From Acidobacteriota bacterium (lineage in GTDB: Bacteria > Acidobacteriota > Terriglobia > Versatilivoradales > Versatilivoraceae): a stretch of DNA of 64,000 nt. This document shows positions 8,954-25,532 of the stretch, in pieces (the stretch's first letter is position 1; each line of letters starts with the position of its first letter). Below the pieces are notes generated by a model that was not told where the DNA came from, ran no database searches, and worked only from the letters and a program-made list of their open reading frames with translations. The translations under genes were made by a program, and so were the position numbers. The stretch lies in NCBI GenBank assembly GCA_028875575.1, contig JAPPDF010000087.1, forward strand, positions 14,147 through 78,146, given 5' to 3'.

Positions 8954-8962
8954 GGCAGCAGT

Positions 8963-9885: not shown

Positions 9886-9961
9886 GGGCGAGTAGCTCAG
9901 ATGGGAGAGCGCGGCGTTCGCAACGCCGAGGTCGAGGGTTCGATCCCCTTCTCGTCCACCA
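9886..9961 (+). tRNA. tRNA-Ala (anticodon CGC), 76 nt including encoded CCA
   Basis: Manual cloverleaf: acceptor GGGCGAG/CTCGTCC, D-arm GCTC-AGATGGGA-GAGC, anticodon stem CGGCG/CGCCG with loop TTCGCAA, and T-arm GAGGG-TTCGATC-CCCTT. The 3' 23 nt are the attL core of the downstream island. Confidence 0.85.
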
Positions 9962-10110
9962 TTTCCCCTTCCCGCCAATTCTTAGAAAATCCCATAAGTA
10001 ACTGATATAAAGGGAGTTATATTCCCTTTTTGTGCTTGCGTGTTCCTGCACAATCCCTTATAATCCTATATAGGTCGTGGGATAAAACGTGGGAGAAGCG
10101 CGGAGGGAAC

Positions 10111-11295
10111 ATGGGCAAGCTCACTGTTGTAAAGGTCAAATCTATCACAGAACCGGGGCGATACGGTGATGGCGGGACGCTGTTTCTGGTCGTTGCGCCC
10201 GGTGGATCGAAGTCCTGGGTGCAACGAATCGCCATCGACGGCAAGCGCCGGGACATTGGCCTGGGCGGCTGGCCGCTGGTGAGTCTGGCCGAAGCCAGAA
10301 TCAAGGCATTTGAGAATCGGAAGCTCGCCAGGGTGGACGGCGGCGATCCGCTGGCCGGGAAACGCAAGGCCAAGATGCCAACTTTCCAGGAGGCCGCCGA
10401 ACGCACATTTAGGGGGCTCAAGCCCAAGTGGCGAAACGCCAAGCACGCGGCGGACTGGTGGAGTTCTGTTGAGAGATACGCCTTTCCGATGGTCGGCAGT
10501 ACTCCGGTTGATCGAGTCCGCCGGGAGGACGTGCTGCGAATCCTGACGCCTATCTGGTCGAGCCGTCCGGAGCGGGCGCGGCGGCTGCGCCAGCGGATCC
10601 GGGCGATTTTTTCCTGGGCGCAAGCACACAACTACATTCCGGGAGAGAACGTGGCCGGCGAGGCAATCTCTGGAGCGCTGCCGACAATGGCGATCGGCAA
10701 AACTCACTTCCGGGCGCTGCCCTATCAGGAGGTCGCCGCGGCGCTTGCAAAGGTGGAGGGGACCAACGCGAGCATGGCCGCCAAGTACTGTCTCCGGTTT
10801 CTGGTATTGACGGCCGCCCGTAGTGGTGAGGCCCGGGAAGCGACCTGGAGCGAGATTGACCTGGACGCGAGAGAATGGCGCATTCCTGGCGAGCGAATGA
10901 AGGGCGGAGCCGAGCATCGGGTACCGCTGTCTGATGCCGCGGTCTCGGTACTGGAGCAGGCCCGGGTGCTGGATGATGGTTCCAGTCTGATTTTCCCTTC
11001 GGCGCTGAGGCCTGGGCGCTGTCTATCCAATATGACTTTAACCAAGCTGCTGCGGTCAACCGGCTTGGCCGAGCGGGCAACTGTGCACGGGTTTAGATCG
11101 AGCTTCCGTGACTGGTGCGGCGAGCGGGCGAATGTACCGCGCGAAATTGCTGAGGCCGCGTTGGCCCATACGGTCGGCGGTGTCGAGGGCGCCTATTTCC
11201 GAAGTGACTTGTTCGCCAAGCGGCGGCAGTTGATGGATCAGTGGGCCGCCTATCTGACCCGAGCTGTCGGGAAGGTGGTGCGGATCCATGGATAA
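10111..11295 (+). CDS. int: site-specific tyrosine integrase (P4-type, N-terminal DUF4102-like arm-binding domain)
   Basis: Catalytic signature HGFRSSFRDW...LAHTVGG...AYFRSDLFAKRR plus an N-terminal arm-binding domain. Lies immediately 3' of the tRNA, with RBS GGAGGG. Confidence 0.9.
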   Translation: MGKLTVVKVKSITEPGRYGDGGTLFLVVAPGGSKSWVQRIAIDGKRRDIGLGGWPLVSLAEARIKAFENRKLARVDGGDPLAGKRKAKMPTFQEAAERTFRGLKPKWRNAKHAADWWSSVERYAFPMVGSTPVDRVRREDVLRILTPIWSSRPERARRLRQRIRAIFSWAQAHNYIPGENVAGEAISGALPTMAIGKTHFRALPYQEVAAALAKVEGTNASMAAKYCLRFLVLTAARSGEAREATWSEIDLDAREWRIPGERMKGGAEHRVPLSDAAVSVLEQARVLDDGSSLIFPSALRPGRCLSNMTLTKLLRSTGLAERATVHGFRSSFRDWCGERANVPREIAEAALAHTVGGVEGAYFRSDLFAKRRQLMDQWAAYLTRAVGKVVRIHG

Positions 11296-11887
11296 GGTGG
11301 AAGCACTGATACGCAAGATACAGACACACCCTGCCTTCCACGGCGGTCCGGCTGATGAAGAATATTGGCTCGACTTTCTTGAGGCGACACTGGCGGAGTT
11401 TGGAACTTACGAGTTCCTGGTTGAGATGCAAGGAGAAGGATTAAGGCGGCGACCGGAGATGTTGGCTTTGTACATCCTTGCATCCCAAGAAGACCGGCTT
11501 GCTTGGGACGTGCTGGAAGCCCTTGTTAGACGACTTCGGCGGGGCGGCAAGCCCTTGCCAAATAGATTGGCTGAATGGTGGATAGATGCCGCAGCGGGGG
11601 TTCTCAAGAAACCGAAAGGAGGCGGGCGGGTTGCTCACCGAAACCGAATGAGGGACCTTGCGATTGCCGCAGCTGTCAACGGTATCCGCGACGTAACTGG
11701 GATACCCTACGAGTTCGATCAACGAATCTCCGCGCATCCTCGGACGGCCTGTCATGTTGTGGCGGAAAGGCTCAACATGAGCTATGGGGCCATCCGTTCA
11801 ATCTGGAGAAACATGAGGCCACATATCGAACGGGCTCGAGACCAAGGCCTCATTCTCCCACCCGGCAAGAAACAACGGCGACGTTAA
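11288..11887 (+). CDS. hypothetical protein (island-encoded)
   Basis: 199-aa ORF overlapping the int stop. No recognisable family; could be a regulator. Confidence 0.45.
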   Translation: MDKVEALIRKIQTHPAFHGGPADEEYWLDFLEATLAEFGTYEFLVEMQGEGLRRRPEMLALYILASQEDRLAWDVLEALVRRLRRGGKPLPNRLAEWWIDAAAGVLKKPKGGGRVAHRNRMRDLAIAAAVNGIRDVTGIPYEFDQRISAHPRTACHVVAERLNMSYGAIRSIWRNMRPHIERARDQGLILPPGKKQRRR

Positions 11888-11992
11888 CACCCTAAAACTA
11901 CTACCCCATATTTTCGGTATGTACCCGTGCGGGAAAGTTGGGCATTGTTTGGGAAAGCGGTGGATTTTCTGATCTCGAGAACTGGAGGAAAT

Positions 11993-12199
11993 ATGATTGA
12001 CCGACTTTTGACCCGAACGGAGGTAGAGCGGCGCTGTGGACTTGCCCGATCGACGGTCTACCGATTGATGAGGCAAAACTTGTTTCCTCTACCTTTGAAA
12101 CTTGGTGGAAAGGCCGTCCGCTGGCCTCAATCTGAAATTGAATCCTGGATCGCAAGCCGGCCCCGCGCAACTGGCGAGGGCTCCCGCGTGTCTGCCTGA
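11993..12199 (+). CDS. alpA: AlpA-family phage transcriptional regulator / excisionase-like HTH protein
   Basis: MIDRLLTRTEVERRCGLARSTVYRLMRQNLFPLPLKLGGKAVRWPQSEIESWIASRP matches the AlpA family. RBS GGAGG. Confidence 0.85.
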   Translation: MIDRLLTRTEVERRCGLARSTVYRLMRQNLFPLPLKLGGKAVRWPQSEIESWIASRPRATGEGSRVSA

Positions 12200-12254
12200 G
12201 CGCACAAAAAAAGCCCCAGGATGGCAGCCCGGGGCTGGCACGACGGTATGACCT

Positions 12255-13571: not shown

Positions 13572-13700
13572 CGGTTCCGAGCGGTTCCGGGAACCGTTGT
13601 TTAGCGGTTCCGCCGGTTCTACGGTTCCCTAAAGGAACCGGAACCGGGAACCGATAAGCGGAAACAGGGCAAAATCATCAAGACGCGGGAACCGATAGCG
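13569..13700. promoter_or_regulatory. putative replication origin: ~10 iterons of CGGTTCC / GGAACCG in both orientations
   Basis: Direct reading of GCGGTTCCGAGCGGTTCCGGGAACCG...GCGGTTCCGCCGGTTCTACGGTTCCCTAAAGGAACCGGAACCGGGAACCG...GCGGGAACCG. SaPI/PICI ori sites sit 3' of rep in the same way. Confidence 0.6.
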
Positions 13701-13711
13701 AGGGGGTAACA

Positions 13712-14011
13712 ATGCCGACACCGAAGGGAAGCCGCTGGAGCCAATCACTGAGGCGGAACATGATGGCAGAACGCAACGGACGGACGGCCGACTGTGACGC
13801 GCTGGCGCTGCCCCTGGTCCGGTTGTGTCGGTCGCAAGGCTTCACCTTCGAGGAAACCGCGGCCGAGCTCGATAGGGCCGGACTCCCCACTTGCCGCACT
13901 CTGAGCCAGGGCAAGGCTTATCGGTGGTGCGCGGGGTCGGTGCGCAATCTCTGCCGCCGGCACGGGCTGGCGACGGCGAGGCGGAGCAAGCTGGACTGGA
14001 TAAGGGCGTGA
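13712..14011 (+). CDS. putative small terminase subunit / HTH DNA-binding protein
   Basis: 99-aa ORF directly upstream of terL with a predicted HTH (GFTFEETAAELDRAGL). The assignment rests on position and is tentative. Confidence 0.35.
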   Translation: MPTPKGSRWSQSLRRNMMAERNGRTADCDALALPLVRLCRSQGFTFEETAAELDRAGLPTCRTLSQGKAYRWCAGSVRNLCRRHGLATARRSKLDWIRA

Positions 14012-14075
14012 TGGCACCGGCGGCGGATTGCTTGGGGGTCGCACCTCGCCACGGGGGCTTTCTGTGTAACTCGAA

Positions 14076-15503
14076 ATGAATCAGCTTCGACGATTTCAAA
14101 GGCGGTTTCTGGCACGGGCGACAGCTCGCGGGGTCGATACGGCCGTGCTGTGTCTACCCCGTGGTAACGGGAAATCCTGGCTGGCGGGACACTTGGCGGC
14201 GCGGGTTCTGTCTCCGGCCGATCGTCTATTCCGTCCTGGGACTGAGTCGGTCTTGTGCGCGGCCTCGATCGAGCAGGCCAGGATAGTCTTTCGGTTTGTG
14301 CGCGCAATCCTGGAACCAAGGGGCGGCTATCGGTTTTTGGACAGCAACACGCGAATAGGGATCACACACACGGCCAGCAATACTAAGCTGCGGGTGATCG
14401 GATCGAACGGCAAGACGGCCATGGGCCTTGTCGGTTGCCCCTGGGTGATTGCCGACGAACCTGGGGCCTGGGAAGTGAGGGGCGGGACGTTGGTTCATGA
14501 CGCCATCGAAACCGCCAAGGGAAAGCCGGGCTCACCACTCCGCGCCGTCTACATAGGGACGCTGGCGCCATCAACGGGCGGCTGGTGGCACGATCTGGTT
14601 AAGGACGGATCGGGGCCGGGCGTGTACGTGCAGGTGCTGCAGGGGGATCGCAAGACCTGGGACCGCTGGCCAACCATCCGCAAGGCAAACCCACTGACGG
14701 CGATATCGGCAGACTTCCGGGCCAAGCTACTACAGGAGCGGGACGCAGCAAGGCGGGACACTCGGCTAAAGGCTCGGTTTCTGTCCTACCGGTTGAACAT
14801 CCCGACAGCCGACGAAAGCGAGGTCTTGCTGACGGTGGAGGATTGGGAGCGAGTGACGGCCAGGGCGGTCCCGGATCGGGAAGGCCTGCCGATGTTCGCC
14901 TATGACTTGGGCGGCGGCCGCGCATGGTCCGCGGCGGTGGCGCTGTGGCGCAACGGCCGAACCGAAGCCCTGGCGGTTGCCCCTGGAATTCCCTCGCTGG
15001 AAGATCAGGAGAAACGGGACCGCGTACCGGCTGGCCTCTACCGCAAGCTGGAGGAATCCGGCCGGCTGCTGGTTGCCGATGGGTTCCGGGTTCCGGCGCC
15101 GGCATTCCTTCACGGTTCGGCCGTGGCGGCCTGGGGCGGCCCCGATTGCATCCTGTGTGATCGCTTCCGCCTTCCCGAGCTGGCGGACGCGGTGAACGGT
15201 GCGCGGCTGGTTCCAAGAGTTACGCGGTGGAGCGAGGCGAGCGAGGATATCAGGGGCCTGCGGAAGCTGGCGGCCGATGGGCCGCTGTCGGTGGAAACCG
15301 GATCGCGGGATCTGTTGACGGCCTCTCTGTCGGTGGCCATGGTTAAAAACGACGATCAAGGCTCGGTCCGGTTGGTCAAGCGGGGATCGAATAACACGGC
15401 GCGGGATGATGTGGCGGCGGCCTGGCTGCTGGCTGCCGGCGCGTTGTCGCGGTGGATCCGCCGGCCCCGACGTCCTCGCTGGCGCTATCGAGGGGCGGTG
15501 TGA
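14076..15503 (+). CDS. terL: phage terminase large subunit (TerL)
   Basis: Walker A LPRGNGKSW, an ATPase domain and a C-terminal nuclease-like domain typical of TerL. Its stop overlaps the HNH start (TGATG). Confidence 0.85.
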   Translation: MNQLRRFQRRFLARATARGVDTAVLCLPRGNGKSWLAGHLAARVLSPADRLFRPGTESVLCAASIEQARIVFRFVRAILEPRGGYRFLDSNTRIGITHTASNTKLRVIGSNGKTAMGLVGCPWVIADEPGAWEVRGGTLVHDAIETAKGKPGSPLRAVYIGTLAPSTGGWWHDLVKDGSGPGVYVQVLQGDRKTWDRWPTIRKANPLTAISADFRAKLLQERDAARRDTRLKARFLSYRLNIPTADESEVLLTVEDWERVTARAVPDREGLPMFAYDLGGGRAWSAAVALWRNGRTEALAVAPGIPSLEDQEKRDRVPAGLYRKLEESGRLLVADGFRVPAPAFLHGSAVAAWGGPDCILCDRFRLPELADAVNGARLVPRVTRWSEASEDIRGLRKLAADGPLSVETGSRDLLTASLSVAMVKNDDQGSVRLVKRGSNNTARDDVAAAWLLAAGALSRWIRRPRRPRWRYRGAV

Positions 15504-15796
15504 TGGATCGGGCGGGCTCGAGGTTCTATGCCAGCATCCGGGGCCGGCGCTGGGATCGGGTCCGCCGGCGCGAACTCAAGCGCACCGGCTACCGCTGCGA
15601 GCGGTGCGGCAAGGCTGGCCGTCTCGAGGTCCACCACAAGCGGCCGCTGCACCGGGGCGGGGATGCCTACGCGGCCGATAACCTGGCCGTCCTTTGTCGG
15701 CGCTGTCATATTGAGGCGCACCGGCGACCCCTGAGTGATGAGGCGCAACGGTGGGCCGACCTGCTGAGGGGGGTTTTTCTTGCAGGGAAGATTTAA
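15503..15796 (+). CDS. HNH endonuclease (packaging-associated)
   Basis: Zinc-finger HNH motif CERCG...LEVHHKRPLHRGG...NLAVLCRRCH. HNH endonucleases next to terminase are typical of HK97-like and cf-PICI packaging modules. Confidence 0.85.
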   Translation: MDRAGSRFYASIRGRRWDRVRRRELKRTGYRCERCGKAGRLEVHHKRPLHRGGDAYAADNLAVLCRRCHIEAHRRPLSDEAQRWADLLRGVFLAGKI

Positions 15797-15832
15797 CAAT
15801 TGTATATTATTTGTAGATTTCGAGAGGGCAAG

Positions 15833-16294
15833 ATGAAAAAAAAGCCAATTCGATACCACGTCCAAATCAACGGAGACGGGAAGGGCGGCCCGGCAATGAT
15901 GGCAGACGGCACTCCCGAGGGCGAAATTCTGGAGGTCGCGCCGGTAACGACCGTTCGGGTAAATCGTGAAACCCGAAACTTGATTGACCGGTGCGGGCGG
16001 TTGCTGTCGGAATTGCCGGAGCCGCAACGGTCAAACCTGCGCTTTGTACTGTGCGCGACCGGCGGCGCCGTCCCGGCCCCTGGGGCGAAAATTCCCGCTG
16101 GTGAGGTCATTCATTACGCACTCGCGGCCCTCGAGGCAAACCTGGACCCCCAGGCGCGGGCGCAGCGCGAGGCCGCAGAAATGGCATATCAAAACTACCT
16201 GGAGCACTTGAGGAATGCGCACAAGGTCCGGGACGGGGTTGCGCGTGACGCGGACGGAAACCCCATTCCGGATCGAATTTCGGATGGGGAGTAA
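15833..16294 (+). CDS. hypothetical protein (island-encoded)
   Basis: 153-aa ORF between HNH and capsid with no recognisable family. Confidence 0.4.
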   Translation: MKKKPIRYHVQINGDGKGGPAMMADGTPEGEILEVAPVTTVRVNRETRNLIDRCGRLLSELPEPQRSNLRFVLCATGGAVPAPGAKIPAGEVIHYALAALEANLDPQARAQREAAEMAYQNYLEHLRNAHKVRDGVARDADGNPIPDRISDGE

Positions 16295-16324
16295 CGGAAG
16301 TCAGTTTTTCATGGAGGGTCGATC

Positions 16325-17617
16325 ATGACCAATTCGCAACGGCTGGCCGTCCGACTGTCGGAGATCCGGCAACGGCTGAATGAGATTGCAGGGCTGGAGG
16401 GTGACGCCTTCACCGACGAAATCCGGCAGGAAGCCGACCGGCTGCAAACCGAGTTCCGGGCCAAGGAAACGCAGTATCGGGCGGCCTTGGTAGCCGAGGG
16501 CGAGTCCGAAAGCCGGGCCCTGGAAACCGAGCCGGACGCCGAGCGCCGGGAGCGCCTGGAGCTGCGCAGCCGGGCCAACCTGTCGGCCTACCTACGGGCG
16601 GCGCTGTCGGGCCGGAGAGTGGACGGAGCCGAACGGGAGTTGCAGGAGGCCGCCGGCATCGGGGACGGCATCCCAATCGAGCTATGGGACACGGTGGCCC
16701 CGGAGGAACGGGCCGAGCATCGGCAGGGTGACGCGGCAACGGCTGCCCCTGGGACGGTCGGGGTCAACCTGGACCGGATCAGGCCGGCCGTGTTCGCGCA
16801 GTCTATCCTCCCGGGACTTGGGGTGGAAATGCCCCGAGTCGAGTCCGGCACCTACGCAAGCGCCACGATTACCACGTCCCTGACGGCCGCCAGCAAGGCC
16901 AAGGGCGCGGCACAGGAAGCCACCGCGGCGGCCTTCACGGTGACGTCGGTTACTCCCAAGCGGATCAGCGCCAGGTTGGGGATTCGGATTGAGGACGTGG
17001 CGGCCATAGGTCAAGGAAATTTCGAACCAATTTTGCGCGAAAATTTATCCCTGGTCCTGTCGGACGAATTGGACAAGCAAGGGCTGAACGGGGCCGGCAG
17101 CAATTCCGGGGCGGATCTGGTGGGCTTGTTTCACCGATTGACGGATCCAAGCGCCCCGGACACCTTGGCCACGTTCGACCTTTTCGCTGCGGCCCTGGCC
17201 GGCGGGGTTGATGGCCTTTGGGCGCTGAGTCAAAGGGACGTGGCGCTGCTGGTGGGGCCGGACACCTATCAGTTGGCCGGAAAGACCTTTCAATCGGCCG
17301 CCAATTACAAGGGCGAGCTTTCGGCCGCGTCCTACCTGATGGCCCAATCCGGAGGCTTCAAGACCAACAAGCGGATGCCGGACGCAGCCAACAAACTCCA
17401 GCAAGGCATCCTCTTTCGGATGGGACGGTCCATGATGGGCGGGACCGGAGCCATGCGGACGGCGGTTTGTCCCCACTGGAACGAAATTTCAATCAACGAC
17501 ATTTACAGCGGGAGCGCCAAGGGTGAGCGGTTCTTTACAATGCACGTCCTGCTCGGGGACGTGATCCTGGTTCAGCCGGACGCTTACTCTCAAATCGCTT
17601 TCAAGGTCGCGGCCTAA
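16325..17617 (+). CDS. phage major capsid protein, HK97 family (with N-terminal coiled-coil delta/scaffold-like domain)
   Basis: N-terminal ~120-aa coiled coil followed by an HK97-fold-like region (GVNLDRIRPAVFAQSILPGLGVEMPRV...FTVTSVTPKRISARLGI...). Size and placement within the head module fit an HK97 MCP. Confidence 0.7.
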   Translation: MTNSQRLAVRLSEIRQRLNEIAGLEGDAFTDEIRQEADRLQTEFRAKETQYRAALVAEGESESRALETEPDAERRERLELRSRANLSAYLRAALSGRRVDGAERELQEAAGIGDGIPIELWDTVAPEERAEHRQGDAATAAPGTVGVNLDRIRPAVFAQSILPGLGVEMPRVESGTYASATITTSLTAASKAKGAAQEATAAAFTVTSVTPKRISARLGIRIEDVAAIGQGNFEPILRENLSLVLSDELDKQGLNGAGSNSGADLVGLFHRLTDPSAPDTLATFDLFAAALAGGVDGLWALSQRDVALLVGPDTYQLAGKTFQSAANYKGELSAASYLMAQSGGFKTNKRMPDAANKLQQGILFRMGRSMMGGTGAMRTAVCPHWNEISINDIYSGSAKGERFFTMHVLLGDVILVQPDAYSQIAFKVAA

Positions 17618-17720
17618 AGGGGCCGCGCTGGCGCTGCGGCCGCGCCTGCTGGCGTTTCTAAGGCTCCAGGGTGGTCTATACCTCCGAGACCATCCTGGGG
17701 CCGTTTTTGCAGGATTTGCC

Positions 17721-18191
17721 ATGGGATCTGTCCTGATAAGCGGTCCGGCCGGGGCTGGCAAGAGCCAGGAAGCCAAGCGCCGGCGCGATGCGGCCAGCCG
17801 TCCGACGGTGGTTGCAGACTTTCAATCCCTGGTTGTGGCCATGCTCCAGCAAGAGCGCGGTCCGGATGGGAAGTATCCAGAGCGGCCGGAATGGATCCTG
17901 CCCCTTGCCGAGTACACGAGGCGGGCCGTTATCACGGCGGCGCGCAAGCGCGGGATTGACGTGGTAGCAACCAATTCTGACGGGGATCCCGGCCGGCGGC
18001 GGTTCCTGCTGGAGATCCTGGGGCCGCGGCGGGAAGATTTTGGCCCGGCCCTGGAGGGTACGGAGGAAGTCATTGTGGATCCGGGCGAAGAAGTGATAGC
18101 GCGGCGGCTGGCCGGGAAGTCGGGGCGGCTGTCGAGGGCCTGCAAGCAAGCGTCCGATCGGTGGTATAGACGCCTTCCGGGGCGGCGGTAG
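17721..18191 (+). CDS. P-loop NTPase / kinase-like protein (AAA_33 / zeta-toxin-like fold)
   Basis: Walker A GPAGAGKSQ at the N-terminus. It is a small 156-aa protein in an unusual position inside the head module. Confidence 0.55.
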   Translation: MGSVLISGPAGAGKSQEAKRRRDAASRPTVVADFQSLVVAMLQQERGPDGKYPERPEWILPLAEYTRRAVITAARKRGIDVVATNSDGDPGRRRFLLEILGPRREDFGPALEGTEEVIVDPGEEVIARRLAGKSGRLSRACKQASDRWYRRLPGRR

Positions 18192-18671
18192 GTGAGCATG
18201 GAACACGAAAGCCGAACGGTTGAAATCCGGTTTGAGTCTGATGCCGAGCGCATGAGTCCCGGCCGCCTGGTGGGCGTCTTGCTGCCCTACGGCGAGCGGG
18301 CGAGCGACCGGCCGGAAGTGTTTGAGGCCGGGGCCTTGCATTGGCCGGCCGATGGCGTCTTGCTGAGGGCCATGCACAAGCGGCAAGATCCCATTGCGCG
18401 GTTCATTCCCGAGGCCACGGAAACCGAGGTCCGGGTATCGATCGAGCTGCCGGACACCACGGCCGGCAGGGACGCGGCCACAAACGTCCGGGCGGGTGTC
18501 CTGCGGGGCCTGTCTGTTGAGTTCCGGGCCGAAAAGGAGACGCGCCGGGACGGGCTGCGGGTAATCCAGCGGGCGCGCCTGGTGGGCGCTGGTCTGGTGG
18601 ATTCGGGGGCCTACTCGGGCGCAACGGTGGAGGCCAGGGGCAAGGCCAAGAGGCGGCGGTTATGGCTGTAA
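18192..18671 (+). CDS. HK97-family phage prohead protease (peptidase S78/U35)
   Basis: Sequence pattern VEIRFESDAERMSPGRLVGVLLPYGERASDRPEVFEAGAL...GLSVEFRA is typical of prohead maturation proteases. Confidence 0.7.
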   Translation: MSMEHESRTVEIRFESDAERMSPGRLVGVLLPYGERASDRPEVFEAGALHWPADGVLLRAMHKRQDPIARFIPEATETEVRVSIELPDTTAGRDAATNVRAGVLRGLSVEFRAEKETRRDGLRVIQRARLVGAGLVDSGAYSGATVEARGKAKRRRLWL

Positions 18672-18976
18672 CGATTACGGCCGAGGAACTGCGGCAACGA
18701 GTGTCCGGGGTGGCCGAAACACACGCGGCGCAGCTTCGGAAAGTGGCAAAGGCGATAGTTGAGGCCGAGGCGCCGAACGCGCCGTCATGCGTTCAGAATG
18801 AAGCCGTGGTGAGGCTTGCTGGCTACCTGGCCCAATCCGATTTCGGCGGGATTGTGGAGGAGGAGCTGGGAGCGAAGCGGGTCGAGTATGCCGTCAACCA
18901 TGCGGCCATGTTTCACCGATCCGGGGCCAAGGGATTATTGAGCCGGTGGAAGCGCCGGCGAGCTGGGGCGATATGA
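18662..18976 (+). CDS. phage head-tail connector (gp6-like) protein
   Basis: ~100-aa gp6-like protein placed between protease and portal. Its stop overlaps the portal start (ATGA). Confidence 0.55.
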   Translation: MAVTITAEELRQRVSGVAETHAAQLRKVAKAIVEAEAPNAPSCVQNEAVVRLAGYLAQSDFGGIVEEELGAKRVEYAVNHAAMFHRSGAKGLLSRWKRRRAGAI

Positions 18977-20049
18977 TCGAGCTGGGGATTTCACAATTCA
19001 GGCCGGAGCGGCGGCAATCGGGCGGGAGCTTCACCGATGCCGTTGTGCGGTTGCTGGAAGCTCAAGCGGCCGGGACGGCGGCAAGCACCGGATCAACGGC
19101 CGCGGTCGAGGCGGCTGCCGGCGCACTCTCCCGGGCCCTGGCGGCGGCTGAGGTCTCGGGGCCTGAGTGGGCGACCGGGGCGGTGTCTGCCGAGTTCCTG
19201 GGGCAAGTCGGGCGCGACCTGGTGAGGTCGGGTCAATCCCTGCACGTCCTGGACGTGGACAACGCGGGGCGGGTATCCCTTCTGCCGGCGGCAAGCTGGC
19301 ATTTCGAGGGATCGGCCCATCCGTCAAGCTGGAGCGTTCGGGCCACGGTCTACGGACCATCAACGTCCGTCACTCGCCACTTGCCCTTTTCGGGGGTCGT
19401 GTTTGTCAAGTGGGGGTCCACTCCCGGCCAGCGGTACACAGGGACCGGGCCGCTATCCTGGGCCAATATCACGGCACGACTGCAATCGGAGTCCGAGCGG
19501 TCCCTGGCCGACGAGGCCGGCGGGCCGATTGCCAATCTGCTGGCCATCCCTCAGGACGGCGGGGACGGGACCGACGAGGATCCCTTGAAGGAACTGAAGG
19601 CCGATCTCCGGACGGCCAGGGGCAAGGCGCTGTTGCTGGAAACCACGGCGGCCGGTTGGGGCGATGGCAGGCTGTCGGCCCCTCAAAGGGACTGGAAGGC
19701 CGAGCGGTTGGGGCCGGCGCCGGCGGCCGGGCTGGTACAAGTCCGGGCCGATGCCTTTAAGGCCGTCCTGGCCGCTGCTGGGTGTTCGGTCGCCATGTTT
19801 GATGATTCCGACGGCACAAGCAAGCGAGAAGCCCTGCGGCAGTTCTTTCTAGGGACCGTGCAACCGCTGGCCCGGATGTTGCAGGCCGAGCTCGCGGCCA
19901 AGCTGGAAGCGCCGATCCGGCTGGGCTTCGATCTTTACAACGTGGACCTGGCCGGCCGGGCACAGTCGTTTCAGAAGTTAGTCGCGGGCGGGATGGACCT
20001 TGCCAAGGCGGCAGGATTGGCTGGGTTGATGGACATGGAGGCCGGTTAA
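18973..20049 (+). CDS. phage portal protein, HK97 family
   Basis: The C-terminal region (LLAIPQDGGDGTDE...SVAMFDDSDGTSKREALRQFFLGTVQPLARMLQAEL) matches the conserved portal clip/wing motifs. Start taken at the ATGA overlap (the track ORF begins at 18946). Confidence 0.7.
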   Translation: MIELGISQFRPERRQSGGSFTDAVVRLLEAQAAGTAASTGSTAAVEAAAGALSRALAAAEVSGPEWATGAVSAEFLGQVGRDLVRSGQSLHVLDVDNAGRVSLLPAASWHFEGSAHPSSWSVRATVYGPSTSVTRHLPFSGVVFVKWGSTPGQRYTGTGPLSWANITARLQSESERSLADEAGGPIANLLAIPQDGGDGTDEDPLKELKADLRTARGKALLLETTAAGWGDGRLSAPQRDWKAERLGPAPAAGLVQVRADAFKAVLAAAGCSVAMFDDSDGTSKREALRQFFLGTVQPLARMLQAELAAKLEAPIRLGFDLYNVDLAGRAQSFQKLVAGGMDLAKAAGLAGLMDMEAG

Positions 20050-20117
20050 CCGATACCGGTTCGTTCCCTTAGGGACAGAGCTAGGCACACCTTCGGGGCC
20101 AAGCTATAATTTCGGCA

Positions 20118-20966
20118 ATGAAACGAATGTGTTGTGTCAACCTGTTGGGCGGACTGGCCCTGTCTATATTGACCCTTACTCTCTGGTGGCATTGGGATTG
20201 GGTCGTGTCGTCCTCAGGGGAGTCCGGCTCAACGATCCTTCGAAACCTTGGGCTCGTATACGGTGGTCTCATTGCGATTTGGGTAGCCCTCTGGCGTGGT
20301 GTGGTGGCTGATCGACAGGCGGAGGCTTCCAGAGTCCAAGGCGAATCCTCCATGCAGCTAGCGAAGGCTGCCGAAGTCCAAGCTGATACTTCGCAGCGCG
20401 GGCTACTGAACGAGCGTTACCAAAGGAGCGCAGAAATGCTTGGCAGCAAGGTGATGGCTGTCCGCTTGGGAGGCATATTTGCGCTGCATCGTTTGGGCAA
20501 ACACGACCCAGAGCAATACCATGTCCAAACAATGCGGCTATTGAGTTCGTTCGTGTGCTACCCAACTGAGGAAGCTAGATCAACGGACCGCGAGGATGTT
20601 CGGGTCGCATTGGCGGTTATCGGTACCCGGAACAAAGCCGATATTGCACTTGAGAGGAAAGAGGCATATCGTGTGTTCCTGATTTCTGCAGACCTGTCCA
20701 ACATGATCCTGCGAGGGCCAAACCTGACCGGTGCGAAGCTGATAGGTGCAAACCTAACCAATACATTTTTGGGCACGGCCAACCTAACCGGTGTCCACCT
20801 ATTCGACGCGAATCTGACCAGGACGGATCTCTCCCGAACGAGAGGCCTAACCCAATTTCAGCTCGATGAAGCGTGCGCTGATCCAGCCGGTCCACCCAAG
20901 TTAGGTAGCCTTTGTGATGCCAGAACTGGTGAGCCTTTAGTTTGGAATGACAATCCTTGCAGTTAG
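20118..20966 (+). CDS. membrane-anchored pentapeptide-repeat protein (island cargo gene)
   Basis: Two N-terminal TM helices followed by consecutive pentapeptide repeats (ADLSNMILRGPNLTGAKLIGANLTNTFLGTANLTGVHLFDANLTRTDLSRT). Its GC is visibly lower (~50%) than the surrounding ~64%. Confidence 0.7.
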   Translation: MKRMCCVNLLGGLALSILTLTLWWHWDWVVSSSGESGSTILRNLGLVYGGLIAIWVALWRGVVADRQAEASRVQGESSMQLAKAAEVQADTSQRGLLNERYQRSAEMLGSKVMAVRLGGIFALHRLGKHDPEQYHVQTMRLLSSFVCYPTEEARSTDREDVRVALAVIGTRNKADIALERKEAYRVFLISADLSNMILRGPNLTGAKLIGANLTNTFLGTANLTGVHLFDANLTRTDLSRTRGLTQFQLDEACADPAGPPKLGSLCDARTGEPLVWNDNPCS

Positions 20967-21078
20967 CCCTTGGCGGAGCAAGTGCTCCGTTCGGCTCTGG
21001 CATTCGTGGGATCAAACGTGGTAAAAATTTGATTAGGTTTTTCTTAAATGACTTTATATCAGTTTGTTAGACTGATCA

Positions 21079-21101
21079 TTCGATCCCCTTCTCGTCCACC
21101 A
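21079..21101 (+). repeat. attR: 23-bp direct repeat of the tRNA-Ala 3' end
   Basis: TTCGATCCCCTTCTCGTCCACCA is identical to 9939..9961. Confidence 0.85.
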
Positions 21102-21621
21102 AACTCCATCCCAAGAAAGTCCGAGCGGTTCTGGTATTACCCTATAATCAACGTTTTAAAATCTTCAGCCGACCATTCCCATCCAACATTCCCATCTGAT
21201 AGCCCGGGGTAACTGACGGCCGGTCAGTTACGGGAAAAAGTCGCCCCCACCGTACGGCGCAGCGATATTAGCATTCGTCGGGCTCAGTCTGCCAAATCAT
21301 CCGGAAAATTGTTGGACGGAGGCTTCTCGTGTCTCGGAGTGCTCCACTCGTCCGGAAGTAGCTGACCGCACGGTGCTTACGGTCACCGTAAGTGCTTTTG
21401 CCGGCACCTACTCCTCCTGTAATTGCGTTTCAACCCACCGTAGGCCAATTCCCCGGGCGCGTTTCATTCCGGCTGCCATCGCGTCCACCGACAATGGGCG
21501 TTTTTTCCGTCAGCACTGGCGCGAGAACTGGTCGGAAGGGCAGAACAGCCAGGTTGGATTTACCAATCAGTTCCGGTATGCCTTACTATCTGTAGGATCA
21601 GAACTTCAGAGAAATAGGAAC

Positions 21622-21846
21622 ATGCAACTCTCAATGATTACAAGGCGCGGCCAGACGACCATCCCCAAGCGCATCCGTGAGGCGGCCAACCTGCACGTTG
21701 GTGATGTGATTTCTTTCGAGATCGAGGACGATCATCTAGTGGTACGCAAGGTGACGCCGGGGCAGGACAACTATCTGAAGTCTCTCTCCAAGGTTCTTGA
21801 CGAATGGTCCTCGCCCGAAGACGAGCATGCGTGGCGTGATCTTTGA
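21622..21846 (+). CDS. mazE: MazE/AbrB/SpoVT-family antitoxin
   Basis: MQLSMITRRGQTTIPKRIREAANLHVGDVISFEIEDDHLVVRKV is a swapped-hairpin AbrB/MazE motif. It overlaps the downstream toxin gene. Confidence 0.8.
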   Translation: MQLSMITRRGQTTIPKRIREAANLHVGDVISFEIEDDHLVVRKVTPGQDNYLKSLSKVLDEWSSPEDEHAWRDL

Positions 21847-22174
21847 GCCCCTCGATGTAGCCGTCGTCCCTTTTCCCTTCACCGACCGCCGACGCACGAA
21901 ACGCCGGCCGGCCCTGATAGTCTCATCGGCAATCTTCAATCGGACTCATGAACAATCCATCCTGGCAATGATAACCACAGCCGGGCGCGATTGGCCGAGC
22001 GACGTAGCAATTCAGGGCTGGCGGCAGGCCTGCCTCAATGTTCCTTGCAAGGTCCGCTTCAAGCTCTTCACCCTGGATGATGCTCTGATTGTCCGTAAGC
22101 TCGGGGCGTTGTCGAAACAAGATGGGGAAGCGATGAAGAGAGCCCTCGGGCACGTCGTGGCAGGCAGTGTGTAG
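21827..22174 (+). CDS. mazF: MazF/PemK-family mRNA interferase toxin
   Basis: PemK/MazF pattern VVPFPFTDRRRTKRRPALIVS...AMITT...VRFKLFTLDDALIVRKLG, with a 20-bp overlap on mazE. Confidence 0.8.
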   Translation: MRGVIFEPLDVAVVPFPFTDRRRTKRRPALIVSSAIFNRTHEQSILAMITTAGRDWPSDVAIQGWRQACLNVPCKVRFKLFTLDDALIVRKLGALSKQDGEAMKRALGHVVAGSV

Positions 22175-23600
22175 TTCACTGCCACGTGACCGATGCCGAT
22201 GTTAATTGCAGTTATTCCAGTAATTCAACAACGTCCCCTACTTTCTGCCTCTTTTTTCAGTGACTGCGGAAAACAAACCGCTTCCCGATTCGTTCTGATT
22301 TCGGTAACCGGTTTTTATAGCCGGAACCGGATTTCGGAGCCTTTTCTTCGCTCTTGATTCACGTCCAGTTTCGTCTCTGGCAAGGCTCCACTGCACCTCC
22401 TATTCGCCCTTCTTGAGAAGGACCAGCCGCCCTTCCTCTCTCATCATGTTCAAGCTGCTGGAGATGGTGTTTTCTTGACCTCCACGGCTCTTGCGGGAAA
22501 TCCGCAGGAGAGGGGCCCTCTCGACCAAGGAGCCGGGGTCTGGCCAAATCGAACGTCATTTGTCTCAGTTTGGGATATTTTGTCTAAAAACACGTAATGG
22601 ACACTTTATTAGATCTAATAGTCACTTTAAGAGCACATTCGTTTGTTAGCGTCAGGCGTGATTTCCTCGAAATCAACTCTCTGCAGGATCTGTTTCGGGA
22701 GCCCTTTCAGGGCAACATTCGTATTAGCAGTGATTTGAGAAACCTTGGGAGCGGAGGAAAGCAGGCAGGTGCATCGACCTTAAGTCGGAGTGCAGTGCAG
22801 AAGGACCTTCTCTCTGGGGGCCGCGTCTACCTTCCTGCCGTCCGGCCCGGGCGCATTCCCTTCCTGTCGGCCTTGAGCCTTTCCCCGGTTCGGCGGCGGT
22901 TGGGGGGTGGCAAAGGCGTGATGCAGGGCAACAGAAGGACGTCAAGGGAGGGGGGCGACCCTGAATTTCGGAGGTTTACGTCGGGAGGTAAGCCTGTGGG
23001 AAGCCATTTTCGAAATGGTGGCGGCCATCGCAGCTCGTGCCCTTTCGATACCGTCGCTTCTGCTGATCAAGTAAAACGACAAGGCTGTTCTTAGGATCAA
23101 GAACCCTTTGGCGGCTCTCCGCAGGGCCGCCGCAGAGTTGTCAGGAGGCTCGAAAGCGGGAATGTAATTCCTGGAGCGCCCCCTCCAGGATAGGTGTGGC
23201 TGGTCGTCTTACCCAATTCTACGGCCAGTCACACCGCCCGGGCCGCGCCAGGTCCGATGGCCACGGTCGATGAACTCAACAGGGTCATATCCCCGGGGGA
23301 TCCAGATCTCTTAAAGGAGGTAGTGGATTCAGGCGTCGACCCCAACACGGTCGACGATTCCGACCCGGCACGCTAGAGGGCCGAGCACCGGTGCGCCCGC
23401 GACTATGACGCCGTGGGTTTGTGGGGAACCATGGGGTGTTACCGGGATGCCCGGGTTCAGGGGTGGAAGTGTCAGGAACGCTGGTGCGCCATGCATCCTG
23501 TGCCGTTGTGTCCTCACCGTCAGCGTCACTAAACCAACCCGAAAAGGGCGTCGGTCCGGCTTCGCCATGAGGCCGGCCCTTCATTCTTCAGGAGGCCACC

Positions 23601-23779
23601 TTGCCCATTGATTCTATCATCGCCATCGGCAGACTGGCTGAAACCGCCGTCGCTGTGATCTTCCCCGTAGCGGTGTTTTTTCTGGTATGGGGCATCTACC
23701 GCAAACTTGCCGACGCGGTGGTGCTGCTGCAATTCATCCGGGACCATATCCACGTGGACGAGAACATCCGATGGTCATG
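23601..23779 (+). CDS. putative small membrane protein (59 aa, TTG start)
   Basis: GGAGG lies 6 nt upstream of the TTG. It has one clear TM helix (AVAVIFPVAVFFLVWGIY). It falls below the ORF-track length cutoff; low confidence. Confidence 0.25.
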
Positions 23780-24410
23780 ACGGTTCACTCCCACGAGTTT
23801 AATGAACTCTCACGCCGCATCGACAGGATCGCCGGAGCAGGTCTTCCGCCTCCATGCAGAATACATCCGTGAGTTGAAACCTGTACTGACCTCCGAGGCC
23901 AGAGCCCCCCCCAGGAAGAGCCAACAAGGCCTGGACCGAGGAGGAGAAGGCGGAGGTTAAGGCGACCTTCCAGAAGGGGGTTCCCGTCCGCGGGATTGCC
24001 GTCCGGCAGCAGCGCGCGCCGAACTTCATCAAGTCAGCCCCGATAAGGCTCGGGCTAGTGGGTCAGTGGTGAGGAAAAATGGAGTGGTTCGTCGGTGCGG
24101 TGATTATCTCAGTGCTGGTGATCATCGGCTTCATGGTCTACGACGAGCGGGGGAGGGGCGACTGAGCTTGCCCGCCAACAGAAAAATCCGAGAGGAGGTT
24201 CACACCAAAAAAATGGAACGATGTAAGAGTTAATCCACTTGATCGGTGAGCCATCCTCACTTGTTGGAAAGTTTCGAGGGAACCCCCAGGGGACGTTGTT
24301 GAATTAGTGGAATTGCTTGTGCCCGGCCGTCTTTGACATCGCAAACTCCGATCCACAGCCGGCTGGCTCGCCGCACCTGAAATCACTGGCATTTTACCCC
24401 GACCAGGTTC

Positions 24411-25455
24411 TCACTCCGGAGCCCGCGGCGGGGCGCAGATCCGGTCCATGAAGAACTGCAGGAACCGGTCGGCGTCGATCAGCACTGGAACCTGGGCATT
24501 GGGTTCAACAGGCTCGAGCCCGGTAAGAACGTAGTGGTCTCCGGAGTCTTCTATGGATTCCCTGAGCAGATAGCGATTGGCCACCGTTTCGCCGTAGGTC
24601 AATCGCCCCCGGGTCTCCACGGCGATATGCATGGGACGACTCTCCGTGGCCAGGGACGAATCCACTGCCAAACCCACTGCCAGCGGATCGTGGAGCGCGC
24701 CTCCTTCAAAGCCGATGCTCTCGGAAAAAGCGAGGTAGAAATCGGCCAATTGAGCCACATAGCGTGCGATGGGTGATCGATGGTCGGCGAGAGCAGCCGT
24801 ATGGGATCGTTGCAACAGGGTTTGATGAGTGGCGCCCAGACCCACCATGGTGATGGGAATGCCCGACTCGAAGACGATCTTGGCGGCCTCCGGATCGTTG
24901 TAGATGTTGGCCTCGGCGGCAGGGGTGGCGTTTCCTCCTTCGATAGAGCCGCCCATCAGGATGATCTCGGGTATCTGTTCTGCGATGTCCGGTCGCTTGA
25001 GCAGGACCCGAGCGATATTGGTCAGTGGTCCCAGGGGCAGCAGGGTGATTTGCCCGGGGTGGGCGCGGACGAGATCGACGATCAGATCCACGGCGTGACC
25101 CGACTCGGCGGTCTTGGCCGGGGAAGGCAATTCCGTCTCTCCGAGACCGTTCCTGCCATGCACGATGGGGGCCGTGATCAGCTTTTTCCGGAGTGGGCAT
25201 TTCTCTCCCCTGGCCACCGGGATCTCGGTCCGGCCGGCCAGTTCGACCAGCTTGAGCGCATTCTCCACACCCTGGTCCACCAGCACGTTTCCGGAGACCA
25301 CGGTAATCGCCTCGATTCGCAATTCCGGGGACTGGGCCGCCAAAAGGATGGCCATGGCATCGTCAATGCCGGGGTCCGAATCGAGAATGATCCTGCGAGG
25401 CCGGGATGTCGTCGGGTTGGTGCCTGTTTGTGCCGGTAAGTTTGAACCGATGGTA
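24411..25455 (-). CDS. nucleoside hydrolase (IunH/RihA-like); start codon unclear, possibly a pseudogene or non-canonical start
   Basis: The essential DXDXXXDD motif (RRIILDSDPGIDDAMA) lies in-frame upstream of the first ATG (25355). No ATG, GTG or TTG exists between the upstream stop (25471) and the motif; the only candidate is CTG at 25455. The rest of the protein is an intact IU-NH fold (LPLGPLTNIA...NIYNDPEAA). Confidence 0.6.
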
Positions 25456-25532
25456 AGCTCCAGGGAGAGTCTCTTTCACCTTGCCGGGGTAACAGGAACC
25501 TCTTGGCGCGTTCCCCATCCCAATCAAAGCGT

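What the first reader, a model, noticed from the sequence alone, without database searches (positions are those of the whole stretch)
20118..20966. Lower-GC membrane-anchored pentapeptide-repeat protein as the sole accessory gene at the attR end of the satellite
The gene lies between the portal gene and attR, which is the usual accessory-gene slot of PICIs and frequently carries anti-phage or interference genes. The protein has two N-terminal TM helices and about 8 consecutive pentapeptide repeats (A[DN]L[ST]x). Its GC content is visibly lower than both the island and the host, suggesting separate acquisition. A membrane-tethered pentapeptide beta-helix (a DNA-mimic fold in Qnr/MfpA) on a phage satellite could act as a defence or helper-interference effector. 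I have no precedent to cite for this architecture.
Basis: inference. Interest (0 to 1): 0.65.

Follow-up and report, generated by a model that had tools for sequence, protein, structure and literature searches.

The report
Membrane-anchored pentapeptide cargo gene on satellite
The last gene of a small phage satellite encodes a membrane-tethered repeat protein from a very large, unstudied family that in other bacteria usually sits directly behind restriction-enzyme genes, so it is probably a new kind of weapon in the conflict between bacteria, phages and mobile DNA.

Summary
ORF 20118-20966 (+, 282 aa) lies between the portal gene and an exact 23-nt attR. It has two N-terminal TM helices and 11-12 pentapeptide units (Pfam 2e-12). 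Its GC is 0.54, against 0.63 for the island. It is not an orphan architecture. At least 3,349 full-length homologues exist, and the N-terminal module alone finds 2,971 clusters at 50% identity. All share a TM hairpin, coiled-coil stalk, ARM-like helical module, a variable pentapeptide beta-helix (about 7-42 units) and a conserved C-cap.

In 36 of 80 genome loci a restriction enzyme (Type_ISP_C-type IIG, MmeI family, other N6-MTase fusions, Mrr) ends less than 1.5 kb upstream on the same strand, often with a 4-nt overlap. Only one lies downstream. The closest relatives ride on relaxase plasmids or integrative elements. A distantly related satellite in another host (L063) carries a homologue in the same portal/att slot, and two other related satellites do not.

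The Qnr/MfpA DNA-mimic reading is not supported: about 3 coils, net positive, 24 bits against a cut-off of 360. No PADLOC, HalA or phage homologue was found.

Best reading (about 0.45): a defence or exclusion protein acting at the inner face of the membrane. The function itself is inferred, not shown.

The parts
20118..20966 (+). Cargo gene: 282-aa membrane-anchored ARM-like + pentapeptide-repeat protein
   Evidence: ORF. Pfam PF00805 2e-12. AF2 pLDDT 93.3. 3,349 homologues.
20082..20110 (+). Sigma-70-like promoter TAGGCA-17-TATAAT, ending 7 nt before the ATG. This would give a leaderless or near-leaderless transcript and autonomous 'moron'-type expression.
   Evidence: 10 of 12 matches. This is only a consensus match; 0.7 are expected by chance in the region.
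20127..20207 (+). TM helix 1 (aa 4-30); poorly conserved apart from W26/W28
   Evidence: Hydropathy, AF2, conservation 0.38.
20208..20303 (+). Short periplasmic loop and TM helix 2 (aa 31-62) with a near-invariant motif: E35, S36, S38, R42, N43, G45, G50, A53, W59, R60
   Evidence: Alignment of 116 sequences; conservation 0.59-0.69.
20304..20402 (+). Coiled-coil stalk continuous with TM2 (aa 63-95); its length varies across the family
   Evidence: AF2 single helix 37-108. Gaps in A1. Heptad-coding 21-nt tandem repeats in L063.
20403..20672 (+). ARM/HEAT-like helical module (aa 96-185), the most conserved part (LLNERYQ..AEMLGS..VRLGGI..PEQYH); no Pfam model covers it
   Evidence: Conservation 0.83. 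Weak Foldseek hits to armadillo repeats. Alone with the TM part it finds 2,971 clusters.
20673..20852 (+). Pentapeptide beta-helix, about 12 units or 3 coils (aa 186-245); net charge +2
20853..20963 (+). Conserved C-terminal cap (GLTQxQLDxAxADPxxPPKL..DAxTGxPLxW), acidic (net -4)
21079..21101 (+). attR: exact copy of the tRNA-Ala 3' end
9886..9961 (+). tRNA-Ala(CGC); its last 23 nt (9939-9961) form attL
10030..11295 (+). Satellite tyrosine integrase (Arm-DNA-bind_3 + Phage_int_M + Phage_integrase)
14076..15503 (+). Large terminase of the satellite
   Evidence: PHROG_9 5e-37.
16325..17617 (+). Major capsid protein candidate
   Evidence: Weak Pfam Phage_capsid hit, 0.0076. Conserved in L063 and L088.
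18192..18671 (+). Prohead protease
   Evidence: Peptidase_S78 3e-8. PHROG_80.
18946..20049 (+). Portal protein, the last structural gene; 68 nt upstream of the cargo gene
21613..22174 (+). MazE/PemK toxin-antitoxin pair just outside attR. Context only: low GC, 87% nt identical to the pair that follows the homologue P0010 in L083.

Best explanation
The gene is autonomous cargo (a 'moron') of an 11.1-kb capsid-forming, PICI-like satellite integrated in tRNA-Ala of a relative of Ca. Versatilivorator (Acidobacteriota).

Its product is an inner-membrane hairpin protein (N-in, C-in). A coiled-coil stalk holds an ARM-like helical module and a short pentapeptide beta-helix in the cytoplasm, just under the membrane. 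It belongs to a very large unnamed family. Members of that family are typically co-transcribed behind restriction enzymes or carried alone on plasmids, integrative elements and satellites.

Most likely it is a defence-side conflict protein that acts where foreign DNA enters the cell. The variable head (ARM module plus beta-helix) would bind a ligand. That ligand could be the partner nuclease, or a DNA or DNA-handling component of an invader. The almost invariant TM hairpin would oligomerise and convert binding into either exclusion of the invader or membrane permeabilisation with growth arrest, working like the Hailong HalA effector.

On the satellite, with no partner nuclease nearby, it would act alone to protect the lysogen, and so the satellite, against competing phages or mobile elements.

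Shown: the gene, its architecture, its family, its genomic associations and its cargo status. Inferred: the defence role, ligand binding, oligomerisation and the membrane effect.
For: Architecture:
- The AF2 model has pLDDT 93.3 and pTM 0.72. It shows a TM hairpin, one helix spanning residues 37-108, a helical module and a beta-helix with a strand every 5 residues.
- There is no enzymatic domain in Pfam or NCBIfam. Any effector activity must therefore lie in binding or in the membrane.

Family size: 3,349 full-length homologues. The N-terminal module alone finds 2,971 clusters at 50% identity.

Directional link to restriction enzymes:
- In 36 of 80 genome loci a restriction-type ORF ends less than 1.5 kb upstream on the same strand. 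Only 1 lies downstream, and every other 2-kb bin holds 1-3.
- At least four enzyme families are involved: Type_ISP_C-type IIG (PADLOC REase_MTase_IIG 1e-86), MmeI, other N6_Mtase fusions and Mrr.
- Eight loci show 1- to 14-nt overlaps between the two genes.
- One protein, P0154, joins a Type_ISP_C fragment to the family module.
- Flanking genes are not conserved among these loci, so the pair moves as a unit.

Other defence neighbours: cNMP-binding TIR (Pycsar-type) directly downstream in 5 loci; GmrSD, Type I HsdR, BamHI, Uma2, toxin-antitoxins and transposases elsewhere.

Diversification of the head:
- About 7-42 repeat units across the family.
- Five tandem paralogues sit behind one MmeI gene in L074.
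- The window protein is a mosaic of two lineages, joined near residue 95.
- The TM2/loop residues are near-invariant, which is more than a simple membrane anchor needs.

Cargo status:
- The satellite L063 carries a homologue in the same slot; L087 and L088 do not.
- The closest relatives follow a MobA/MobL relaxase gene or its relic, or lie next to integrases.

Absence from phages: none in IMG/VR, and only repeat-only matches in 50,697 GenBank phage records.

Precedent: an effector with pentapeptide repeats and a channel domain in a P4-satellite hotspot, and the HalA DNA-gated channel (PMC13586616; PMC13434031).
Against: - There is no functional test.
- PADLOC has no hit, and I found no similarity to any membrane channel or to HalA in the PDB.
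- The window has no restriction-enzyme homologue within 64 kb, so the partner-based logic does not transfer directly.
- About half of the homologue loci show no obvious defence neighbour, and some sit next to housekeeping genes such as hydantoinase, Mfd and a transketolase-like gene.
- Restriction genes are unusually abundant in sponge symbionts (PMC5649159). This inflates chance adjacency, although it does not explain the strict upstream, same-strand pattern.
- Oligomerisation and pore formation are pure inference from a monomer model.
Confidence: 0.45

Rival explanations
1. Counter-defence or restriction control. The cytoplasmic head binds restriction enzymes and holds them inactive at the membrane. 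In restriction operons it would be a built-in regulator. Carried alone on plasmids, integrative elements and satellites, it would be an anti-restriction or anti-addiction factor that protects the element's own DNA when it enters or leaves a host.
For: - The tight operonic link to several unrelated restriction enzymes and a possible fusion suggest physical interaction with the nuclease.
- Solo copies lie directly after relaxase genes on mobilisable elements.
- A phage pentapeptide protein acting as an anti-defence factor has been reported (bioRxiv 10.1101/2024.07.02.601686).
Against: - The family is absent from phage collections, where anti-restriction genes are common.
- Tandem arrays of five diversified paralogues behind one enzyme fit sensors better than an inhibitor.
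- The head is not acidic.
- The near-invariant periplasmic loop and TM2 residues are not needed for sequestration.
- Known pentapeptide DNA mimics did not inhibit BREX in the one test cited (PMC7261183).
Confidence: 0.2
2. Satellite life-cycle function. The protein would interfere with the helper phage or time events at the membrane, for example helper DNA packaging or injection, or lysis, for the benefit of the satellite rather than the host.
For: It lies next to the head genes, in the same slot, in two related satellites. In L087 the slot holds another small membrane protein.
Against: - Most family members are not in satellites at all but in restriction operons, plasmids and chromosomes.
- Two of four related satellites lack it.
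- Its orientation relative to the portal gene differs between the two carriers.
Confidence: 0.1
3. A non-conflict membrane scaffold or habitat-specific factor of sponge symbionts, carried by mobile elements by chance.
For: - Relatives come from many phyla, and their genome names are typical of sponge microbiomes. MKWU01 is confirmed as an Aplysina aerophoba metagenome.
- Several loci sit next to metabolic genes.
Against: - The repeat domain faces the cytoplasm, unlike secreted eukaryote-like proteins.
- The positional link to restriction enzymes is strongly directional.
- Distant full-architecture homologues occur on plasmids of soil Streptomyces, Rhodococcus and Nocardia.
Confidence: 0.1
4. 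Qnr/MfpA/AlbG-like protection of DNA gyrase or topoisomerase from a natural poison; that is, a mobile resistance gene acting as a DNA mimic.
For: It is a pentapeptide beta-helix on mobile elements. There are weak Foldseek matches to MfpA, QnrB1 and AlbG.
Against: - About 3 coils instead of 8-10, membrane-anchored, and no C-terminal dimerisation helix.
- The beta-helix is net positive.
- NCBIfam mfpA scores 24.2 bits against a cut-off of 360.
- This reading does not explain the restriction-enzyme partners.
Confidence: 0.05

Closest known systems
Hailong HalA effector (DNA-gated membrane ion channel; a P4-satellite hotspot version is described as having pentapeptide repeats plus an IRK channel domain)
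   Same: Both are membrane-embedded N-terminal parts joined by a long stalk to a cytoplasmic 'crown' that includes pentapeptide repeats. Both are carried in a satellite accessory hotspot. Both are non-enzymatic effectors whose activity would be gated by what the cytoplasmic head binds (PMC13586616; PMC13434031).
   Different: - No HalB nucleotidyltransferase partner is present here; the recurrent partner in the family is a restriction enzyme.
- There is no IRK or other ion-channel Pfam hit.
- No HalA chain was retrieved from the PDB by sequence, profile or fold.
- Homology is therefore not shown. This is a 'works like' comparison only.
Qnr / MfpA / AlbG / McbG pentapeptide proteins (topoisomerase protection, DNA mimicry)
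   Same: The same right-handed quadrilateral beta-helix repeat. Both are often on mobile elements.
   Different: Those proteins are soluble dimeric rods of 8-10 coils. This one has about 3 coils, a membrane anchor, an ARM-like module and a net positive helix, and its sequence score is far below the family cut-offs.
Accessory defence genes of PICIs, capsid-forming PICIs and P4-like satellites
   Same: A single extra gene lies at the island end next to att. Its composition is atypical and it has its own promoter-like site. The slot content varies between related islands (PMC13586616).
   Different: The gene matches no catalogued defence system (PADLOC). The hosts are uncultured Acidobacteriota-type symbionts rather than enterobacteria or Gram-positive cocci.
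Abortive-infection partners encoded with restriction systems (e.g. the PrrC anticodon nuclease within the EcoprrI operon; own knowledge)
   Same: A second, non-restriction protein is co-transcribed with a restriction enzyme and could act as a backup when restriction is evaded.
   Different: PrrC is a soluble nuclease tied to one Type I system. Here the partner is a non-enzymatic membrane protein found behind several unrelated Type IIG and Type IV enzymes.
Superinfection-exclusion and entry-exclusion inner-membrane proteins of prophages and plasmids (own knowledge)
   Same: Small inner-membrane proteins carried by mobile elements, expressed from the resident element and acting on incoming DNA.
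   Different: No sequence relationship was tested or known. Those proteins lack the ARM-like and pentapeptide head.

Membership tests
Pentapeptide repeat proteins (Pfam PF00805) | Tandem A(D/N)LXX units scoring above the Pfam gathering threshold | tested here: met
   46.9 bits against a cut-off of 20.2, E=2e-12. Eleven units have a central Leu.
Pentapeptide repeat proteins (Pfam PF00805) | Right-handed quadrilateral beta-helix fold | tested here: met
   AF2 pLDDT above 95 over aa 186-245, with a beta-bridge every 5 residues. Foldseek hits to Np275, Alr1298 and MfpA.
Qnr/MfpA/AlbG topoisomerase-protecting PRPs | Sequence membership (NCBIfam equivalog score) | tested here: not met
   mfpA 24.2 bits against a cut-off of 360.
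Qnr/MfpA/AlbG topoisomerase-protecting PRPs | Soluble rod of about 8-10 coils with a C-terminal dimerisation helix | tested here: not met
   About 3 coils, two TM helices, and a C-terminal cap without a long helix.
Qnr/MfpA/AlbG topoisomerase-protecting PRPs | DNA-like acidic surface | tested here: inconclusive
   The beta-helix is net +2 (pI 10.7) and the whole cytoplasmic part is net 0. Surface electrostatics were not computed.
Hailong HalA | Adjacent HalB nucleotidyltransferase gene | tested here: not met
   The neighbours are the portal gene, attR and MazE/PemK. The only recurrent partner in homologue loci is a restriction enzyme.
Hailong HalA | Ion-channel (IRK-type) pore domain | tested here: not met
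   No Pfam hit other than the pentapeptide families at E<=1.
Hailong HalA | Sequence or fold similarity to the solved HalA structure | tested here: inconclusive
Hailong HalA | Tetrameric channel gated by bound DNA | not testable with these tools
   Only monomer prediction is available.
Capsid-forming PICI-like satellite (accessory gene of) | Island bounded by att direct repeats at a tRNA, with a tyrosine integrase | tested here: met
Capsid-forming PICI-like satellite (accessory gene of) | Head and packaging genes but no tail or lysis genes in about 11 kb | tested here: met
   TerL, capsid, protease and portal were found; no tail or lysis family was hit among the ORFs scanned. The small ORFs were not all scanned.
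Capsid-forming PICI-like satellite (accessory gene of) | The gene occupies a slot whose content varies among related islands | tested here: met
   L063 carries a homologue in inverted orientation. L087 carries a different membrane ORF plus a relic portal end. L088 carries small ORFs.
Capsid-forming PICI-like satellite (accessory gene of) | Induction and packaging by a helper phage | not testable with these tools
   Needs experiment.
Catalogued anti-phage systems (PADLOC-DB v2.0.0) | Match to any model | tested here: not met
   No hit at E<=0.1.
Unnamed TM-hairpin / ARM-like / pentapeptide family (delimited here) | Full-length homology including the non-repeat N-terminal module | tested here: met
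   Query coverage is 90-100% for most of the 120 listed hits. Conserved motifs are seen. Residues 1-186 alone find 2,971 clusters.
Unnamed TM-hairpin / ARM-like / pentapeptide family (delimited here) | Restriction enzyme gene immediately upstream on the same strand | tested here: not met
   None in the 64-kb window. Met in 36 of 80 relatives, so this is a frequent but not universal trait.

The most novel reading that the evidence does not exclude
The family is a new, widespread class of anti-phage or anti-plasmid module. It would be a membrane-embedded sensor-effector that couples to single-chain restriction enzymes (Type IIG, MmeI, Mrr), and that can be detached and carried alone by satellites and plasmids as a stand-alone exclusion or abortive-infection gene.
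Probability: 0.35. Interest if true: 0.8.

Novelty: new variant of a known kind. Interest (0 to 1): 0.62.

Why it matters
- If the family is a defence module, it adds thousands of genes to the bacterial immune repertoire. None of them is recognised by PADLOC or covered by Pfam over the non-repeat half.
- It would link restriction enzymes physically or functionally to the inner membrane, the place where foreign DNA arrives.
- It would extend the idea that satellites are reservoirs of defence genes to uncultured, sponge-associated Acidobacteriota and other phyla.
- It gives a simple two-gene system (IIG enzyme plus family gene) and a one-gene version (this satellite) that can be tested side by side.

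Tried and rejected
- Third att copy: I looked for one between the portal gene and the cargo gene, which would place the gene in an older island. Only two copies exist at up to 3 mismatches. In L063 the homologue is only 12 nt from the portal stop, inside the 52-nt att repeats. Rejected.
- Qnr/MfpA-like DNA mimic: rejected on length, charge and score.
- Secreted eukaryote-like repeat protein of sponge symbionts: rejected because the topology places the repeats in the cytoplasm.
- HalA homology: not demonstrable. The original paper is not held.
- Scans of IMG/VR with the portal protein and with the family alignment found nothing.
- GenBank phages gave only repeat-only matches.
- The metagenome scan with the portal alignment returned only four loci, two of them useful.
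- BFVD gave only generic soluble phage pentapeptide proteins.
- PADLOC on the neighbouring ORFs gave nothing.
- Literature searches for pentapeptide repeats together with restriction enzymes, MmeI or defence islands found no description of this association.
Full report
**Observation**

The ORF at 20118-20966 (+) is real: 282 aa with an ATG start. The same protein is called in an independent public assembly, behind the same portal gene.

It lies 68 nt after the portal gene 18946-20049. Pfam Phage_portal gives 1.2e-8 and PHROG_12 gives 8e-7. It ends 113 nt before an exact 23-nt copy (21079-21101) of the 3' end of tRNA-Ala(CGC) (9886-9961). That sequence occurs exactly twice in the window, against none expected.

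Between the two copies lie a tyrosine integrase, an AAA_25 protein, a large terminase (PHROG_9, 5e-37), a capsid candidate, a prohead protease and the portal. No tail or lysis genes were found. This is an 11.1-kb capsid-forming, PICI-like satellite.

The host is a relative of Ca. Versatilivorator (Acidobacteriota). Window 5526-9961 and 24410-25462 are 85-88% identical to the flanks of the same tRNA-Ala in locus L003. The DNA just right of attR matches the DNA just right of that tRNA in L003, which has no satellite. The repeat is therefore a true boundary and the gene is inside the island.

**The protein**

- Hydropathy shows two TM segments. The charge distribution gives N-in/C-in topology.
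- With a 116-sequence alignment, AlphaFold2 gives a confident model: pLDDT 93.3, pTM 0.72.
- The model shows a TM hairpin; TM2 continuing as one helix to residue 108 (a stalk); a helical module (113-181); a beta-helix with a strand every five residues from 187 to 242 (about 12 units, 3 coils); and a compact C-terminal cap.
- Pfam sees only Pentapeptide (2e-12).
- Foldseek against the PDB matches only pentapeptide proteins for the beta-helix and, weakly, armadillo repeats for the helical module. No membrane channel appears among the hits.
- The beta-helix is net +2 and the whole cytoplasmic part is neutral.
- GC is 0.542 (GC3 0.565), against 0.633 for the island and 0.610 for the window.
- The low-GC tract continues across attR to about 23100, over a MazE/PemK pair.
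- A promoter-like TAGGCA-17-TATAAT ends 7 nt before the ATG.

**The family**

The architecture is not unprecedented.

- A full-length search finds 3,349 proteins. Most of the 120 listed cover 90-100% of the query.
- Residues 1-186, without the repeats, find 2,971 clusters at 50% identity.
- Over 116 sequences the invariant or near-invariant positions include W26, W28, E35, S36, S38, R42, N43, G45, G50, A53, W59 and R60 in the loop and TM2, plus the motif LLNERYQ..AEMLGS..VRLGGIYAL..PEQYH.
- The helical module is the most conserved segment (0.83). TM1 and the repeat region are the least conserved.
- Stalk length varies. In L063 it is built from 21-nt tandem repeats.
- The number of pentapeptide units ranges from about 7 to 42, with a median of 20.
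- The window protein is a mosaic. Residues 1-95 are 67-97% identical to one lineage (P0002/5/6/9; P0011 falls to 40% over the stalk segment 66-95). Residues 96-245 are 69-82% identical to P0010, whose N-terminus is only 10-56% identical.
- Distant homologues with the same central module occur on plasmids of Streptomyces, Rhodococcus, Nocardia and Acaryochloris. They are annotated only as 'pentapeptide repeat-containing protein'.
- No member was found in IMG/VR or in 50,697 GenBank phage records.

**Genomic context of relatives**

A scan of one genome per species returned at least 547 relatives. The best 80 are all metagenome-assembled genomes from many phyla: Chloroflexota/Dehalococcoidia, several Acidobacteriota orders, Nitrospirales, Nitrospinota, Binatia, Latescibacterota, and Alpha- and Gammaproteobacteria. 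Some genomes carry several copies. Many of the genome names are those of sponge symbionts; this rests on my own knowledge. MKWU01 is confirmed as an Aplysina aerophoba metagenome.

The link to restriction enzymes is as follows:

- Clustering all neighbouring ORFs gave one dominant partner: a protein of about 1,100 aa directly upstream on the same strand in 27-28 loci.
- That partner is a Type IIG restriction-modification enzyme, with Type_ISP_C, N6_Mtase and Eco57I domains and a PADLOC REase_MTase_IIG score of 1e-86.
- Other loci have, in the same position, MmeI-family enzymes, other N6_Mtase fusions, or Mrr.
- In all, 36 of 80 loci have a restriction-type ORF ending within 1.5 kb upstream on the same strand, against one downstream. 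Every other 2-kb bin holds 1-3.
- Eight pairs overlap by 1-14 nt.
- One protein joins a Type_ISP_C fragment to the family module.
- Genes flanking the pair are not conserved between loci.
- In five loci a cNMP-binding TIR protein of the Pycsar effector type follows.
- L074 has a complete MmeI gene followed by five tandem paralogues.
- The remaining loci are mixed. They include further restriction genes, toxin-antitoxins and transposases, but also metabolic genes.

**Closest relatives and related satellites**

The nearest homologues (53-62% identity) are cargo of mobile elements:

- a plasmid-like contig with RepA_C, RepB_primase, two GmrSD genes and a second copy of the family gene;
- a copy directly after a MobA/MobL relaxase, 2 kb from an integrase;
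- a copy 760 nt after an integrase of the same type as the satellite's;
- a copy near a transposase, a ubiquitin-like/E1 pair, a methyltransferase and MazE.

Relics of the relaxase 3' end precede the gene in four further loci.

L063, from a Vicinamibacterales genome, holds a colinear 10.2-kb satellite in tRNA-Pro with 52-nt att repeats. Its TerL, capsid, protease and portal are 33-45% identical to those of the window. It carries a homologue (41% identity) between the portal gene and att, on the opposite strand, again with lower GC than the island (0.60 against 0.68).

Two other related satellites from the sponge metagenome lack it. L087 has a different multi-TM ORF and a relic portal 3' end in the slot. 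L088 has only small ORFs.

The slot is therefore a variable hotspot, and the gene is recurrent but optional cargo.

**Interpretation**

The protein has no enzymatic domain. It consists of two binding scaffolds (an ARM-like module and a beta-helix) held under the membrane by a hairpin whose loop and second helix are conserved far beyond what an anchor needs.

Several features place it in the conflict between cells and invading DNA, most probably on the defending side:

- directional coupling to several unrelated restriction enzymes;
- defence-island neighbours;
- tandem paralogue arrays, repeat-number variation and domain shuffling;
- carriage on plasmids, integrative elements and satellites;
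- absence from phages.

I commit to a sensor-effector model. The head binds a ligand, which could be the partner nuclease or an invader component. The hairpin oligomerises to exclude the invader or to permeabilise the membrane. The closest working analogue is the HalA effector of Hailong, a membrane channel gated by what its cytoplasmic crown binds. A version with pentapeptide repeats is reported from P4-satellite hotspots.

Homology to HalA is not shown. There is no channel domain hit, no NTase partner and no PDB hit.

The main rival is a restriction regulator or anti-restriction role (0.2). Helper interference, a non-conflict role and Qnr-like gyrase protection are less likely.

**Novelty**

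- I found no description of a membrane pentapeptide protein coupled to restriction enzymes in the held literature.
- PADLOC has no model for it.
- Accessory defence genes on satellites and membrane effectors carrying pentapeptide repeats are both known kinds.
- I therefore rate this a new variant of a known kind, with a substantial chance that it represents a new defence module.

Noticed in passing
window 21613-22174 (MazE/PemK) and L083 11380-12004: The toxin-antitoxin pair just outside attR is 87% nt identical to the pair that follows the homologue P0010 in L083. That homologue is the donor-like lineage of the window protein's C-terminal two-thirds. The low-GC tract spans both sides of attR, as if satellite cargo and the neighbouring island draw on the same gene pool.
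   Followed up: partly
L003 4762-13719 (Ca. Versatilivorator sp., OZ253547.1), syntenic with window 9886-24410: The same tRNA-Ala is a hotspot. In this relative there is no satellite. Instead an ~8.9-kb island carries a reverse transcriptase, a truncated MmeI-like gene, a relaxase relic, a paralogue of the family gene (47% identity) and an HTH gene.
   Followed up: partly
L074 4458-13634 (Gammaproteobacteria MAG OZ251487.1): A complete MmeI-family enzyme is followed by five tandem same-strand paralogues of the family gene.
   Followed up: partly
window 11288-11887: A second low-GC ORF (199 aa, GC 0.555) lies inside the satellite, overlapping the integrase stop. It has no Pfam or PADLOC hit and no counterpart in L063. 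It could be a second accessory or regulatory gene, so the pentapeptide gene is not the only atypical gene of the island.
   Followed up: partly
L087 1797-2465 (-) and 2317-2394: In a related satellite the portal/att slot holds a different multi-TM ORF. Beyond the intact portal gene there is also a relic copy of a portal 3' end. This suggests cassette exchange by recombination at the portal end.
   Followed up: partly
L063 10180-10242: Three 21-nt tandem repeats encode heptad repeats (SLETAQR) in the stalk of the homologue, a simple way to vary stalk length.
   Followed up: no
P0154 (583 aa; from the representative library): A protein joining a C-terminal fragment of a Type_ISP_C specificity domain to the TM/helical/pentapeptide module. 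It is either a true fusion or a frameshifted overlap of the two coupled genes.
   Followed up: no
L028, L035, L041, L059, L073, directly downstream of the family gene (e.g. L035 11256-12191): A cNMP-binding protein with a CAP12/Pycsar-type TIR domain follows the IIG enzyme and the family gene in five loci.
   Followed up: partly
window 17721-18191 and gene order 14076-20049: A small AAA_33 P-loop ORF sits inside the head module. The order TerL - x - capsid - AAA_33 - protease - x - portal is unusual for head gene clusters.
   Followed up: no
window 3093-3342 and 56312-56559: A ~250-nt element is present twice in the window in inverted orientation. It is 77-87% identical to sequences in two other loci, L011 and L086. 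It may be a small repeat or mobile element.
   Followed up: no
window 38001-38400 and 53951-54600: Two further low-GC patches (0.52-0.55) elsewhere in the window.
   Followed up: no
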